Made by a program: the position numbers and the translations under genes. From an uncultured delta proteobacterium (GTDB taxonomy: Bacteria; Desulfobacterota; Binatia; UBA9968): a stretch of DNA of 64,000 nucleotides. Location: NCBI GenBank assembly GCA_963847445.1, contig CAWJZV010000014.1, forward strand, positions 1-64,000. Direction: 5' to 3'. The notes under the pieces were generated by a model. It was given only the letters and a program-made list of their open reading frames with translations, made no database searches and had not been told where the DNA came from. Of the stretch, positions 11,541 to 41,996 are shown one piece after another. How positions within the stretch are numbered: the first letter of the stretch is position 1; each line of letters starts with the position of its first letter.

Positions 11541-11953
11541 CCACCACAGAGGCCTAGCGCGACATAGCCGCAACCAAATGGGAAAGATTTTTCACCACGA
11601 AGGACCTAACGCGGCACAGCCGCAACCGAATCTCGGAATATCTGCCGCAAAGACTTCATGTCCAATCGGTACTACTAGACGTGGAAATTAACGCGCGCTT
11701 AAAACCGCGGAAATCCATGGCCTCGTTTGCCGGGAACACTAGAACCTGGGATCTTTGCCTCTTCGCAAGAGGCGTAAGCTCGCAAAGGTCAGAGAATAAG
11801 ATCGTAAATATCTTGCAAGAATCTATCCTCGCACGCGTATTTTGCGACCTTGGCGGAGTCGATCTTTGGGTATTGCAGAGACCGAAATTGCACGAAGTTT
11901 CAGCAATAGTAGTACGAGTCACGAAACGGTCTGCTCGTGACCTTCGTGGTGAG
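11541..11953. mobile_element. Multiply nested repeat/MITE cluster (CACGAAG-type repeat containing element E)
   Basis: Two CCTARCGCGRCAYAGCCGCAACC ends (11553, 11605), right end AATAGTAG at 11912, closing CCTTCGTGGTGA. Confidence 0.75.
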
Positions 11954-26660: not shown

Positions 26661-26963
26661 TTCACCACGAAGGACACGAAGAGCACGAAGTTCGGAATTT
26701 TGGTTATCCGAATCCTTCGTGTCCTTCGTACTACTATGCCTCGAAACTTACGCGGTTTGGGCAAATTTTCTGGTAACGGGAATACTAGAACATGGGATTG
26801 ACTCTCGCAAAGGCGCAAAGCTCGCCAAGTTCGGAGAGAAGAGATGAACTATCTTGAAGAATTTATTCACCGTTATTTTCCGACCTTTGCGGCCTTTGCG
26901 TCTTTGCGAGAGATATTCCGAGTTTCGGTTGCGGCTGTGTCGCGCTATGATCTTCGTGGTGAA
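26661..26963. mobile_element. TTCACCACGAAG inverted-repeat unit carrying element E (26731-26949, minus orientation)
   Basis: Outer TTCACCACGAAG..CTTCGTGGTGAA; inner sequence homologous to 41096-41347. Confidence 0.8.
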
Positions 26964-27011
26964 CAAAACCGTCTCAACAGCCCGCCTGATTCACACAAGA
27001 GCCGGAAGACA

Positions 27012-39804: not shown

Positions 39805-41045
39805 ATGGCTGAACCCAAGTGGTACCAAGAACTGACGACCTACCAGTGGCGCGTACTCGTCTGCGCCTGCTTCGGCTGGGCGCTCGACATCATGGACGGC
39901 TATCTCTACGCGATCATTCTATTCCCGGCCATGAGCGATTTGCTCGGCACGAGCGAGGCAGCGGTTATCGGCTGGTACGGCGGCATCGTGCTGAGCATCT
40001 TCATGATCGGTTGGGCGCTGGGCGGGCTGATCTTCGGACCCATCGCCGACCGTTACGGCCGCGCCAAGACCATGGCGATCACGATCTTGATCTACGCCAC
40101 TTTCACCGGACTATGCGGCATCGCCGGTAGCTGGTGGGAATTGGCGATCTTCCGATTCCTCACCGGCTTGGGCATCGGCGGCGAATGGGCCGCCGGCGCA
40201 GCATTAATCGCCGAGAGTTTCCCGGAAAAATCGCGCGCCAAAGCCGCCGGCATCATGCAAGCCTCCGGCGGCATCGGCTTCTTTCTCGCCACCGCGCTTT
40301 ATCTTGTCATCGGCCCCTACGGCTGGCGCTGGGTATTTGCCCTCGGCGTTTTGCCCGCCATCGTCGCCTTTTACGTTCGTCACTCGCTGGAAGAACCGGT
40401 GCGCTGGACCAAAGCCAAACAGACGGGCAATCCCTACCCGGCTCTATTCGCTCCCGGAGTGCGCCGCGACTTGCTGGTCGGCACCGGCCTCGCGGTGGTC
40501 GCGACCTTCGGCTATCAAGGCGCGGTGCAATGGGTGCCGAGCTGGATCGCCGCCATGCTCCACGCCCAAGGCACCCGGGCGGTGATCCCACAGGTAAGCT
40601 TGATCACGACGACGCTCACGACCGGCGGCATCATCGGCTGTCTATGCATGCCGTTCATCGCCGAGCGCTGGGGCAGAAAAGGCGCGTTGTTCATCTATTT
40701 CCTCGGCGCCCTGCTCAGCGTGCCGACAACGTTCCTGTTCGCCAAGGAGTTCAGCCACGCCGTGATCGCTTCGCCGGTGATGGGCTTTTTCGCCGCCGGC
40801 GTGACCACCGCCTTCGCGATCTACTTTCCCGAACTGTTTCCCACCAAGATCCGCGCCACCGCGCAAGGCTTTTGCTTCAACTTCGCGCGCTTCTTCTCCG
40901 CCGCCGGCCCGCTGCTCGCCGGCGTGCTCACATCCGCCCACGGCTCCTTCGCGCCGGCCATCGCCACCATCGGGTCGATCTATGTCGTCGGCTTGTTCGT
41001 CTTATTTTCGCCCGTGAAACCAAAGGCCAAGCGTTGCCGGACTGA
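39805..41045 (+). CDS. MFS transporter (aromatic acid/sialate-like)
   Basis: GWALDIMD, ADRYGR, GIGGEW, PELFPTKIRAT; C-terminal RETKG lies in the shifted frame. Confidence 0.88.
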
Positions 41046-41082
41046 AACATCGGGCTGTTGAGAATTGGTTTTGAAAATACTA

Positions 41083-41362
41083 TTCACCACGAAGGCCTAG
41101 CGCGGCAAAGCCGCAACCGAAACTCGGAATATCTCCGCAAAAGCGCTAAGCTCGCAAAGGTGACGGGCCTATGCTCGTCATCCCGAGCGGACGTGAGGGA
41201 TCTGAAGCAGATTTCTCCCTGCGGTCGAAATGACATCAACTCCGAACTTGGCGTGCTTTACGTCTTGGCGGGAGTCAATCCCCTCTTCGGGTATCCCAGA
41301 TCACGCCTAAATTTTGCGCGAGCCGCGCAAATTGTTAACAATACTAGCACGAAGGACACGAA
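41083..41362. mobile_element. Element E (41096-41347) inserted in a TTCACCACGAAGG repeat, with an internal CGTC-type REP pair
   Basis: CACGAAGG directly repeated on both sides; left end CCTAGCGCGGCAAAGCCGCAACC, right end AATACTAG. Confidence 0.8.
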
Positions 41363-41477
41363 CAATACGAAAACCTGAATAATCTCCGCATTCCCATTGC
41401 GTAACTATCATGGTTAGTTTCCACTCCGAACACTGAACTTTTGAACCTTGAACCCTTGAACGAAGGAGTCGACGCCG

Positions 41478-41996
41478 ATGTTCTCCATGCCGATCGTCAA
41501 TCTCGCAGAAATCTCGCAGCAACTTGCAGAGAGCGGCAAGCGTGTCCGAGTTTTGTGGCAACACGACGACACTCTCGCCTTCGTCGCCCGCGGCCGCGAA
41601 TACCGCAGCGAGTTTCACATCAACCCGAGCGACGAAACCATGCACATGATCAAAGGCGAGATGCGCTTGCATTACCGCACGCCCGGAAGGAAAAGAAGAA
41701 GTCGCCGTGATCGCCGAAGGCGCGATGATCTACACCCCCGCCGGCACGCCGCACTCGCCGCGCTTCCCGCCCGACGCCTTCGCGTTGATCTCAGAAAGAA
41801 AACGCCGCCCCGGCGAGATCGACCGATTTCACTGGTATTGCCAAAAATGCGACAACTTGCTGCACGAAGAAAGTTCGTCGTACACGACTACGCCCAAGAC
41901 CCGGTGTCGAAAGCGTACCAGCGATTTTTCGAGAGTGTGGAATTCAGAACCTGCAAGCAGTGCGGCGAGGTCATGCCGGCGCCGGATGCGCTTTGA
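41478..41996 (+). CDS. nbaC: 3-hydroxyanthranilate 3,4-dioxygenase-like cupin with rubredoxin-like Cys site; internal compensating indels
   Basis: FHINPSDE, TPHSPR, WYCQKC, RTCKQCG. Confidence 0.85.
   Translation: MFSMPIVNLAEISQQLAESGKRVRVLWQHDDTLAFVARGREYRSEFHINPSDETMHMIKGEMRLHYRTPGRKRRSRRDRRRRDDLHPRRHAALAALPARRLRVDLRKKTPPRRDRPISLVLPKMRQLAARRKFVVHDYAQDPVSKAYQRFFESVEFRTCKQCGEVMPAPDAL

What the first reader, a model, noticed from the sequence alone, without database searches (positions are those of the whole stretch)
41083..41362. Repeat-targeting non-autonomous element E with an exact 8-bp target duplication and asymmetric ends
Seen: TTCAC-CACGAAGG-[CCTAGCGCGGCAAAGCCGCAACC..AATACTAG]-CACGAAGG-ACACGAA, compared with the empty repeat TTCACCACGAAGGACACGAAG at 26661. 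E has a GCGGC-AAA-GCCGC hairpin at one end, only a CTAG-sized terminal symmetry, an internal CGCAAAG inverted pair, and here a CGTC-type REP pair as cargo. The same junction occurs at three loci. No transposase is in the window. Inference: a mobile element that specifically targets another repeat family; its enzyme and targeting mechanism (protein- or RNA-directed) are unknown. This is my best candidate for an undescribed system.
Basis: partly seen in the sequence, partly recalled or inferred. Interest (0 to 1): 0.75.

Follow-up and report, generated by a model that had tools for sequence, protein, structure and literature searches.

The report
Hairpin-ended mobile element nested in repeats
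This stretch is one copy of a gene-less mobile DNA element that lands at a fixed spot inside another family of repeats without duplicating its target, and the enzyme that moves it has not been found.

Summary
The sequence is there as described, and E (about 41097-41347) is real. It is one of about 50 copies in this genome of a gene-less family that I call P..T.

- **Ends:** the left end P is CTAGCGCGGCAnAGCCGCAACC with a small hairpin. The right end T is the hairpin TTTGCGCnAGCnGCGCAAA plus a roughly 17-nt tail ending ..TAGTAGT.
- **Position:** copies lie in one orientation after the first unit of tandem-array hairpins with an 8-9 bp period. The unit types are CACGAAG, CGCAAAG, CACAAAG and CACAGAG.
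- **Independent insertion:** two copies that are 97.5% identical sit in arrays of different unit types.
- **The 8-bp "target duplication" is not one:** it is two neighbouring array units. 25 of 32 copies have no flanking repeat, and the window copy is the only one with an 8-mer.
- **The "empty" repeat at 26661 is not empty:** it is the intact arm of a hairpin whose other arm carries another copy.
- **No autonomous version found:** none turned up in this genome, in 72 related genome loci or in 80 metagenome pieces.
- **Enzyme unknown:** my best guess is a REP-type Y1 (HUH) transposase acting in trans. An IS110-type enzyme is the main rival, because a second gene-less family derived from an IS110 element hits the same arrays.

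This is a new variant of a known kind: a site-specific element that targets palindromic repeats.

The parts
41083..41096 (+). Left flank: foot TTCAC, the first array unit CACGAAGG, then C. This is the target, not part of E.
   Evidence: nearly all left ends are preceded by foot + C-R-C..AG-NN-C. In metagenome pieces the base before CTAG is C in 71 of 81 sites.
41097..41118 (+). Left end P: CTAG tag plus the hairpin GCGGC-AAA-GCCGC (41102-41114), then AACC.
   Evidence: 4 sites in the window, none in shuffles; 108 nhmmer hits in the genome; hairpin in the minimum-energy and centroid folds.
41119..41131 (+). Linker GAAACTCGGAATA between P and the inner array hairpin.
   Evidence: conserved as GAAACTCGGAATATCTC in the E-type copies.
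41132..41160 (+). Left arm of the inner hairpin, made of CGCAAAG-type units.
   Evidence: It is complementary to 41242-41274.
41177..41234 (+). Cargo in the loop: a CGTC-tagged hairpin, GTCATCCCGAGCGGACGTGAGGGATC..GATTTCTCCCTGCGGTCGAAATGAC.
   Evidence: other copies hold a different 48-nt cargo here; 412 arms of this type in the genome at up to 3 mismatches.
41242..41274 (+). Right arm of the inner hairpin (CTTTGCG-type units, degenerate).
41275..41312 (+). Conserved spacer TCAATCCC..GGTATCCC..AAA in front of the right-end hairpin.
   Evidence: alignable in the full copies printed there; partial matches to query 181-303.
41313..41331 (+). Right-end hairpin T: TTTGCGCG-AGC-CGCGCAAA.
   Evidence: 75 nhmmer hits, 51 paired with a P; in both folds.
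41332..41347 (+). Right tail TTGTTAACAATACTAG. The family consensus is ..ATAGTAGT, whose last T lines up with C at 41348.
   Evidence: Tail type goes with target type.
41348..41374 (+). Right flank: the rest of the target array, CACGAAGGA CACGAACAA TACGAAAAC. There is no inverted arm at this locus.
26730..26948 (-). A second copy of E with a different loop cargo, inside one arm of a CACGAAG hairpin.
   Evidence: Metagenome contigs leave the window sequence just after 26729 in four runs (11, 6, 15 and 7 loose ends).
26661..26729 (+). The intact arm, loop and inner part of the host hairpin. Its outer closing unit is at 26949-26965.
11553..11627 (+). Two more left ends, nested: CACAGAG-type unit | P | linker | CACGAAG foot | P.

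Best explanation
**What E is (shown).** E is one copy of a family of gene-less mobile elements (P..T, about 130-400 bp) with two unlike, hairpin-bearing ends.
- The elements insert in one orientation, without duplicating the target.
- The insertion point is right after the first unit (plus one C) of tandem-array hairpins with an 8-9 bp period. Several unit types are used.
- The inside of each element is itself an array hairpin of another unit type, whose loop can hold further cargo. This produces nested structures.

**How it moves (inferred).** The enzyme acts in trans. I commit to a REP-associated Y1 (HUH) tyrosine transposase, of the RAYT or TIRYT type, that recognises the tagged hairpins at the two ends. 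These are CTAG + hairpin on one strand and (A/C)(T/C)AG + hairpin on the other, as in a REP doublet (REPIN).

**What is shown and what is inferred.** The ends, the position, the orientation, the lack of duplication, the independent insertions, the lineage-specific copy numbers and the absence of an autonomous copy in the data searched are shown. The enzyme class and the single-strand chemistry are inferred.

**Odds.** About 0.75 that this is a trans-mobilised, site-specific element that makes no target duplication. About 0.35 that the enzyme is a Y1.
For: **Family and ends**
- 46 T ends have a P end 111-374 nt upstream on the same strand, and none lies between 375 and 9116 nt.
- With nhmmer, 51 of 75 T hits pair within 450 nt and none between 450 and 6000 nt.

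**Position and orientation**
- By a strict pattern, 36 of 60 P hits follow exactly one array unit. Of the other 24, read by eye, 18 have a degenerate unit or were mis-registered by my script, 1 follows a second unit and 5 have none.
- All abutting units face the same way.

**Same array type on both sides**
- 32 of 35 classifiable copies. No label shuffle out of 100,000 reached this. The types were assigned by eye.

**Independent insertion**
- The C16:59667 and C23:105999 elements are 97.5% identical, but one lies in a CACAAAG array and the other in a CACGAAG array. Their flanks are 57-64% identical.

**No target duplication**
-.

**Lineage-specific expansion**
- T counts are 0-38 in 31 genomes of the genus. 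The nearest relatives, G004 and G014, have 3 each. A reversed control pattern gives 0 everywhere.

**For a Y1 enzyme**
- The hairpin ends are tagged like REPs (REP definition in PMC6006769 and PMC3733652, passages read).
- The genome holds a canonical RAYT flanked by its own REPs. It also holds two long Y1 proteins with a C-terminal HTH domain. One scores 88.3 bits against a cut-off of 80 for the REP tyrosine transposase model.
- Other transposases are few.
- All 6 genomes of the genus with no long-Y1 match have 0 T.
Against: - None of the Y1 genes examined is flanked by P or T. This covers 3 in this genome and 22 gene copies in 19 loci of relatives.
- Element orientation shows no link with the sign of the GC skew (Fisher p 0.2-1.0). 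IS200/IS605-type single-strand transposition would be expected to show one (recalled).
- G015 and G018 have 24 and 13 long-Y1 matches but only 2 and 1 T.
- The tag is CTAG, not GT[AG]G, and the two end hairpins differ from each other.
- No filled-versus-empty pair at one orthologous site could be obtained. The intergenic regions of the nearest relative do not align, and the public runs hold only short contigs of relatives.
- Copies are related, so the statistics overstate independence.
Confidence: 0.7

Rival explanations
1. P..T elements are deletion derivatives of an IS110/IS1111-type insertion sequence. A DEDD recombinase moves them in trans, guided by a bridge or seeker RNA that reads the array unit.
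For: - A second gene-less family, X, sits in the same arrays one step away. In this genome 35 copies of 152-267 bp all follow (T)TCACCACGAAG.
- X has the ends of an IS110-type element with a 424-aa DEDD gene. That element is found in G005 (an unpublished genome), in G009 (78% amino-acid identity) and in G024 (88%, cut by the contig end).
- IS110 elements that target REPs are in print (PMC1525189 abstract; PMC11187229 and PMC11208160, search listings only).
- Unlike ends, no duplication, one orientation and no replication-strand bias all fit.
- The right tail goes with the target type. In this genome TAG-type tails abut 19 CACGAAG/CACAAAG units and 0 CGCAAAG units, while TGC-type tails abut 1 and 4. 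That would suit recognition by base pairing.
Against: - None of the 27 IS110-type loci scanned has P or T at its ends.
- This genome has only one broken IS110 gene.
- No P..T pair spaced more than 450 nt encloses a transposase, in this genome, in 72 genome loci or in 80 metagenome pieces.
- No shared core dinucleotide is visible at the two junctions.
- The tail association has exceptions in other genomes: 4 TAG-type tails abut CGCAAAG units.
Confidence: 0.25
2. There is no transposition of E as a unit. The pattern is a mosaic of short repeat modules, like BIMEs, built by recombination, slippage and concerted evolution of the arrays around old insertions.
For: - BLAST hits to E are mostly partial, and different parts recur on their own.
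- P hits outnumber T hits, 108 to 75.
- T occurs without P in some genomes.
- Arrays are clearly dynamic: 8- and 9-bp spacings occur and unit numbers vary.
- No empty orthologous site was recovered.
Against: - The ends are fixed to the base in copies with unrelated flanks.
- One subfamily at 97.5% identity lies in two array types.
- The position and orientation are strict.
- Copy number runs 0-38 among congeners, with only 3 in each of the nearest relatives G004 and G014.
Confidence: 0.12
3. One reading: a MITE-like element moved by a cut-and-paste (DDE-type) transposase that makes an 8-bp target duplication.
For: An exact CACGAAGG lies on both sides of the window copy.
Against: - There are no terminal inverted repeats beyond 3-4 nt.
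- 25 of 32 copies have no flanking repeat, and only the window copy has 8 nt.
- The variable two bases of the unit differ between the left and right flank in most copies.
- The undisturbed array CACGAAGG-CACGAAGG is common.
- Insertion is in one orientation only.
Confidence: 0.03

Closest known systems
REP / REPIN / BIME repeats with RAYT and TIRYT Y1 transposases (PMC6006769 and PMC3733652, passages read; PMC5581495, search listing only)
   Same: - Short intergenic hairpins with a 4-nt tag at the foot, often in inverted pairs.
- No gene inside; they are moved in trans, if at all, by a Y1 enzyme encoded elsewhere.
- Copy number is lineage-specific.
- REP dimers inserted within other palindromes are reported (PMC3733652).
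- This genome encodes a RAYT and two TIRYT-like Y1 proteins. In relatives the multi-copy members of that family carry flanking repeats, GGGGTCAGAC.., that fit the published TIR consensus GGGG[AT][CG]A[CG].
   Different: - The tag is CTAG, not GT[AG]G or CGTC.
- The two end hairpins are unlike each other and lie 110-370 nt apart, with an array hairpin between them.
- Insertion is off-centre, after the first unit of the host array.
- No Y1 gene here is flanked by P or T.
IS110/IS1111-family elements that target REPs or other repeats, such as ISPpu9 and ISPpu10 (PMC1525189, abstract read; PMC11187229 and PMC11208160, search listings only)
   Same: - Orientation-specific insertion at one position of a repeated palindrome, with no target duplication and unlike ends.
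- A family of this kind (X) hits the same arrays in this genus.
   Different: E has no transposase and no recognisable bridge-RNA region. No IS110 locus with P and T ends was found.
IS200/IS605 elements and their gene-less derivatives, PATEs (PMC10055086, passages read; PMC3119063, search listing only)
   Same: Subterminal hairpins at unlike ends, no terminal inverted repeats, no duplication, insertion next to a short specific motif, and trans mobilisation of gene-less copies.
   Different: - The two hairpins are in inverted rather than direct orientation, and they differ in sequence.
- There is no replication-strand bias.
- No TnpB match was found in the genome, and no IS200-type tnpA is flanked by these ends.

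Membership tests
MITE of a DDE insertion sequence | Terminal inverted repeats of about 15-30 bp | tested here: not met
   The ends CTAGCGCGG.. and ..ATAGTAGT share at most 3-4 complementary bases. The MITE definition is from PMC3733652 (passage read).
MITE of a DDE insertion sequence | Target-site duplication of fixed length at most copies | tested here: not met
   25 of 32 copies have none, and only the window copy has 8 nt.
IS200/IS605-derived PATE | Subterminal hairpins at both ends, no inverted repeats, no duplication | tested here: met
IS200/IS605-derived PATE | An autonomous relative with the same ends that carries tnpA (and tnpB) | tested here: not met
   No P..T pair more than 450 nt apart encloses such a gene. 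No TnpB match was found. The Y1 genes lack P and T flanks. Only the data held here were searched.
IS200/IS605-derived PATE | Orientation bias with respect to replication (insertion into the lagging-strand template; recalled) | tested here: not met
   No association with the sign of the GC skew at 10, 25 or 50 kb (p 0.2-1.0). The skew sign is only a rough proxy on contigs.
REP / REPIN (RAYT-mobilised) | GT[AG]G (or CGTC) tag 0-2 nt from the foot of a G+C-rich hairpin | tested here: inconclusive
   A tag-plus-hairpin layout is present, but the tag is CTAG/CCAG/ATAG/TTAG. The definition is from PMC6006769 (passage read).
REP / REPIN (RAYT-mobilised) | The same repeat flanks a RAYT gene in the genome | tested here: not met
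   The RAYT on C39 is flanked by a different REP, GTAGGATGTGGTGAGC... The long Y1 genes are flanked by GGGGTCAGAC-type repeats.
IS110/IS1111-derived gene-less element | Ends identical to those of an element that encodes a DEDD transposase | tested here: not met
   The 27 IS110-type loci scanned gave no P or T at their ends. This feature is met for the neighbouring X family, not for E.
IS110/IS1111-derived gene-less element | Site- and orientation-specific insertion without duplication | tested here: met
BIME-like mosaic (no unit mobility) | Modules recombine freely and no fixed outer boundaries are shared by copies in unrelated flanks | tested here: not met
   The boundaries are fixed to the base in copies whose flanks are 45-78% identical.

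The most novel reading that the evidence does not exclude
The 22-nt left end P is the handle of a widespread class of gene-less elements that crosses taxa. Each element carries its own fast-changing array hairpin with an 8-9 bp period.

Each element homes into the first unit of other arrays. The site would be read partly by base pairing with the element's own tail, since tail type goes with target type. It would also be read partly by an enzyme that recognises 9-bp periodic DNA. One candidate is a Y1 transposase whose C-terminal domain resembles the part of DnaA that binds 9-bp boxes.

That would make this a self-nesting, retargetable, hairpin-into-hairpin system with no described counterpart.
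Probability: 0.15. Interest if true: 0.75.

Novelty: new variant of a known kind. Interest (0 to 1): 0.5.

Why it matters
How gene-less palindromic repeats spread, and what the long Y1 (TIRYT) proteins do, are open questions in the papers read here (PMC3733652 and PMC6006769, passages).

This family offers clean material for those questions:
- ends defined to the base;
- a fixed insertion point in a simple periodic target;
- several target types, with matching tail variants;
- large copy-number differences between sister species;
- a second, IS110-derived family that uses the same target, which serves as a built-in comparison.

An exact left end also occurs in metagenome contig pieces of 35-71% G+C. 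The class may therefore be common in uncultured soil and sediment bacteria, where such repeats break assemblies and create spurious genes.

It is not a new principle. Site-specific insertion into palindromic repeats is known.

Tried and rejected
**Steps that led nowhere**
- **Rfam.** No family reached its gathering score in the whole window. Only two chance-level matches (E 2.3 and 4.8) fell on 40950-41500.
- **Orthologous empty site.**
  - The gene pair around E is conserved in relatives. Seven have a 97-125 bp spacer; in the four printed it holds a GGAGTnnTGGAGT hairpin. Six have an extra MFS gene.
  - I fetched 400 kb of the nearest relative (G004, about 88-90% identical in genes). Its intergenic regions opposite the three window loci do not align.
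- **Public reads.** No run holds more than 0.16 of the sampled words. Laying four runs gave only short contigs of relatives and of other repeat copies. No contig bridges the E locus, so neither presence nor absence of an empty site can be read from it.
- **Autonomous copy.**
  - None was found in this genome or in 72 loci of genome contigs. The one 2802-nt spacing there encloses ordinary genes.
  - None was found in 80 metagenome pieces.
  - Viral contigs gave no match.
- **Contig ends.** They share no common multi-copy element.
- **Arm symmetry as a duplication test.** Counting units in each arm by eye on the copies gave mixed results, so I dropped it.
- **NN distributions of the array units.** Not decisive on their own.
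- **Correlation of T counts with long-Y1 or IS110 counts across 31 congeners.** Weak and inconsistent, and kin are not independent.
- **Papers.**
  - 'Binatia' + 'repeat' listed nothing on such repeats among the 10 shown of 14.
  - The motif strings occur only as cloning primers among the 10 shown of 72, and the two array strings have no occurrence at all.
  - Supplementary files were not opened. Those of PMC6006769 and PMC3733652 may list similar repeats.
- **My first position script** was mis-registered and is replaced.

**Not run.** Complex prediction, structure prediction and the protein searches were not used.

Full report
**What is at the coordinates.**
- The window reads TTCAC-CACGAAGG-C-[CTAGCGCGGCAAAGCCGCAACC ...
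- It lies in a 432-nt spacer between an MFS transporter gene and a small gene with no Pfam match.
- Folded as single-stranded DNA, the piece shows the small left hairpin (GCGGC/GCCGC) and a right hairpin (TTTGCGCG/CGCGCAAA). Both appear in the minimum-energy and the centroid structure, with z = -2.73.
- Between the two hairpins lie:
  - an inverted pair of CGCAAAG-type arrays;
  - in their loop, a CGTC-tagged hairpin of a type with 412 arms in the genome.
- No Rfam family matches.

**E is a member of a large family.**
- The window is the first 64 kb of contig C14 of a 7.19-Mb assembly of 48 contigs with 57.6% G+C.
- BLAST of the E region against the genome gives 214 alignments. Most are partial, so the parts also recur on their own.
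- Two end modules define the family.
  - P, the left end, is CTAGCGCGGCAnAGCCGCAACC.
  - T, the right end, is AAATTTGCGCnAGCnGCGCAAA plus about 17 nt ending ..TAGTAGT.
- By pattern, 46 T have a P 111-374 nt upstream on the same strand, and none lies between 375 and 9116 nt.
- With profile searches there are 108 P and 75 T. Of the T hits, 51 are paired within 450 nt, none at 450-6000 nt, and 24 are unpaired or far.
- The size classes are about 130-145, 165-205, 220-235 and 255-395 nt.
- E belongs to the 232-nt class (measured from inside the left end to the end of the right hairpin).

**Where the copies sit.**
- Almost every P is preceded by a foot (TTCAC, TTAGC, TTAAC ...), one unit of the form C-A/G-C-x-x-A-G, two variable bases and a C.
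- A strict pattern finds this in 36 of 60 good P hits. I read the other 24 by eye:
  - 18 have a degenerate unit or were mis-registered by my script, the window copy among them;
  - 1 follows a second unit;
  - 5 have no unit.
- On the other side, the T tail runs straight into the rest of the same kind of array. ..TAGTAGT|ACGAAG.. follows a CACGAAG unit..TTGCAGT|GCAAAG.. follows a CGCAAAG unit, and ..TAGTAGT|ACAAAG.. follows a CACAAAG unit. One copy lies in a CACAGAG array.
- By my reading, the type agrees on both sides in 32 of 35 classifiable copies. No label shuffle out of 100,000 reached this. Copies are related, so that figure overstates independence.
- The host arrays usually go on to a loop and an inverted arm. 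So the element sits off-centre in one arm of a hairpin.
- The inside of an element is an array hairpin of another type. Elements in CACGAAG arrays carry CGCAAAG arrays and the reverse, and nesting three deep occurs at 11553-11627 in the window.

**The 8-bp repeat is not a target duplication.**
- The flanks are units of a tandem array, so a direct repeat across any insertion is expected.
- CACCACGAAGG is followed directly by CACGAAGG at 48 of 516 sites without E. With a strict foot, 45 arrays have 8-bp spacing of the first two units and 33 have 9-bp spacing.
- Taking E out of the window copy leaves exactly the common form TTCACCACGAAGG-CACGAAGGACACGAA.
- In the family, the junction is unit1-NN-C | CTAG...TAGT | A-CGAAG. 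That is the undisturbed array cut between the C and the A of the second unit.
- Of 32 copies, 25 have no abutting direct repeat, 5 have 7 nt, 1 has 10 nt, and only the window copy has 8 nt. It has 8 because its last base is C where most copies have T.
- The two variable bases differ between the left and right unit in most copies.
- The "empty" repeat at 26661 is the intact arm of a hairpin whose other arm holds a copy of E at 26730-26948 on the minus strand.
- Contigs of other repeat copies in four metagenome runs leave the window sequence just after 26729. This supports that boundary.

**Evidence that the unit moves.**
- Element pairs 90-97.5% identical over at least 90% of their length have flanks 45-78% identical. 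One pair with near-identical flanks looks like a duplicated or redundantly assembled segment.
- The best case is C16:59667 against C23:105999. Identity runs from CTAGCG to ..TAGTAGTAC and stops there, and the two copies lie in arrays of different types.
- In the genus, counts of the right-end motif at up to 1 mismatch run from 0 to 38 in 31 genomes: 32 here, 38, 29, 25 and 16 in four others, and 3, 3 and 7 in the three nearest relatives. The reversed control pattern is at 0 throughout. The count of 16 is from G005, an unpublished genome.
- What I could not get is one site seen both filled and empty. The nearest relative's intergenic regions do not align, and the public runs hold only short contigs of relatives.

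**Search for the enzyme.**
- No P..T pair encloses a gene in this genome.
- None does in 72 loci of related genomes. Spacings there are 114-381 nt, and the single 2802-nt case encloses ordinary genes.
- None does in 80 metagenome pieces, where spacings are 132-442 nt.
- The record titles of the related genomes name Candidatus Binatia and 'Deltaproteobacteria bacterium' assemblies.
- The genome is poor in transposases:
  - Y1: three genes and one remnant;
  - IS110: one broken gene;
  - Y2: one gene and one faint match;
  - TnpB: none;
  - rve: five matches;
  - DDE_Tnp_1: three matches;
  - integrase: seven matches.
  - None of these lies on C14.
- The 175-aa Y1 on C39 is a canonical RAYT (190.8 bits) flanked by its own REPs.
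- The 307-aa and 275-aa Y1 proteins carry a C-terminal HTH domain that resembles the DnaA C-terminus.
  - The first passes the RAYT model (88.3 bits against a cut-off of 80).
  - The family has 0-24 matches per genome in the genus.
  - Its multi-copy members are about 1.0-kb units bounded by GGGGTCAGACTTCTA inverted repeats.
  - That fits the published subclass 2.1, the 'TIRYT' proteins, with TIR consensus GGGG[AT][CG]A[CG] (PMC6006769 and PMC3733652, passages read).
- None of these genes has P or T beside it.
- Element orientation is unrelated to the sign of the GC skew.

**A second family in the same target.**
- While checking IS110 genes I found a complete IS110-type element with a 424-aa DEDD gene in G005 (unpublished). 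Relatives occur in G009 (78%) and G024 (88%, cut by the contig end).
- It begins TGATTCATGATCTTACGC.. right after CCACCACGAAG and ends ..AAATTTTCGAAGGAGG in front of further CACGAAG units.
- This genome has 35 gene-less copies of it (X, 152-267 bp). All sit after (T)TCACCACGAAG.
- So the arrays are a shared landing site for two unrelated gene-less families, and for X the enzyme class is evident.
- This raises the odds that an IS110-type, RNA-guided enzyme also moves P..T.
- The link between tail type and target type points the same way, although it has exceptions. In this genome the counts are 19:0 against 1:4, and in other genomes 15:4 against 0:3.
- Against it, none of the 27 IS110-type loci scanned carries P or T at its ends.

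**Spread.**
- An exact left end occurs at 81 sites in 80 metagenome contig pieces.
- Those pieces have 34.6-70.7% G+C, with a median of 57.6%.
- The base before CTAG is C in 71 of 81 sites.
- What follows P is an array hairpin of many different unit sequences.
- I did not place these contigs taxonomically.

**Verdict.**
- The target duplication and the "empty site" do not hold.
- The kind is known: site-specific insertion into palindromic repeats, REP doublets, IS110 elements in REPs, and REP dimers inside other palindromes.
- This family, its periodic target, its self-nesting and its missing enzyme are, as far as my searches reach, not in print.
- I file it as a new variant of a known kind. 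The Y1 (REP-type) enzyme is my committed but weakly supported mechanism, and IS110-type recombination is the main rival.

Noticed in passing
G000 outside the window, for example C24:92931 and C15:186203; L135 (G005:C323, an unpublished genome); L134 and L156 (G009:C456): A gene-less family, X, has 35 copies of 152-267 bp in this genome. Its ends are TGAWTCATGAKCTTACGC.. and ..TATTTTCGAAGGAG, and every copy sits after the foot (T)TCACCACGAAG of the CACGAAG arrays. The same ends bound a complete IS110-type element with a 424-aa DEDD gene in three relatives.
   Followed up: partly
G000:C2:49258-50178 (L013); L112-L117 in G015, G018, G043 and G012: A long Y1 protein (TIRYT-like, with a DnaA C-terminus-like HTH) has 0-24 matches per genome in the genus. 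Its multi-copy members are about 1.0-kb units bounded by the inverted repeat GGGGTCAGACTTCTA, with short tandem repeats just outside. The nearest relative, G004, has a copy broken by a stop codon.
   Followed up: partly
G000:C39:625-1152 of L016: A canonical 175-aa RAYT is flanked on both sides by inverted REPs of the GTAGGATGTGGTGAGC.. type. That motif occurs 37 times in the genome.
   Followed up: partly
window 41046-41477 against L009-L012 and L002-L006: At the same gene junction, seven relatives have a 97-125 bp spacer; in the four printed it holds a different array hairpin (GGAGTnnTGGAGT units). The six nearest relatives have an extra MFS_3 transporter gene on the opposite strand that this genome lacks.
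   Followed up: partly
L131, L132, L133, L136 (G003, G017, G024, G012): Another IS110-type element, with a conserved GAGACTTTCTATGAGGCTTGTCAAG.. near one end, lies beside a CCTCCCCCGCG..CGCGGGGGAG hairpin. Repeat-targeting IS110 elements seem to be common in this genus.
   Followed up: no
metagenome pieces L157-L236: An exact left end P precedes array hairpins of very different unit sequences (GGTTCAGGG, AATCCCAAA, TTTTCGATT, CACGGATTT, CACGAATnn ...). The contig pieces have 35-71% G+C.
   Followed up: partly
G000 C1 (minus-strand offset 4408) and C30 (minus-strand offset 626824): Two P..T copies are 98.7% identical and have 89-100% identical flanks. This is a segmental duplication or redundant contigs; the assembly's stated contamination is 6.9%.
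   Followed up: no
G000 genome-wide: Several GTAG-tagged hairpin families are abundant: GTAGGGGCGGGTTTGAAACCCGCCC 89 times, GTAGGGGCGTATGGCATACGCCC 49 times, and CGTC-tagged GTCATCCCGAGCGGA arms 412 times. They often sit in the loops of the array hairpins.
   Followed up: no
L048, L060, L070 (other MAG loci): In some relatives the right end T occurs without a recognisable P. A GTAG-tagged hairpin (GTAGGGTGCGCTTCGCGCACC) stands where P would be.
   Followed up: no
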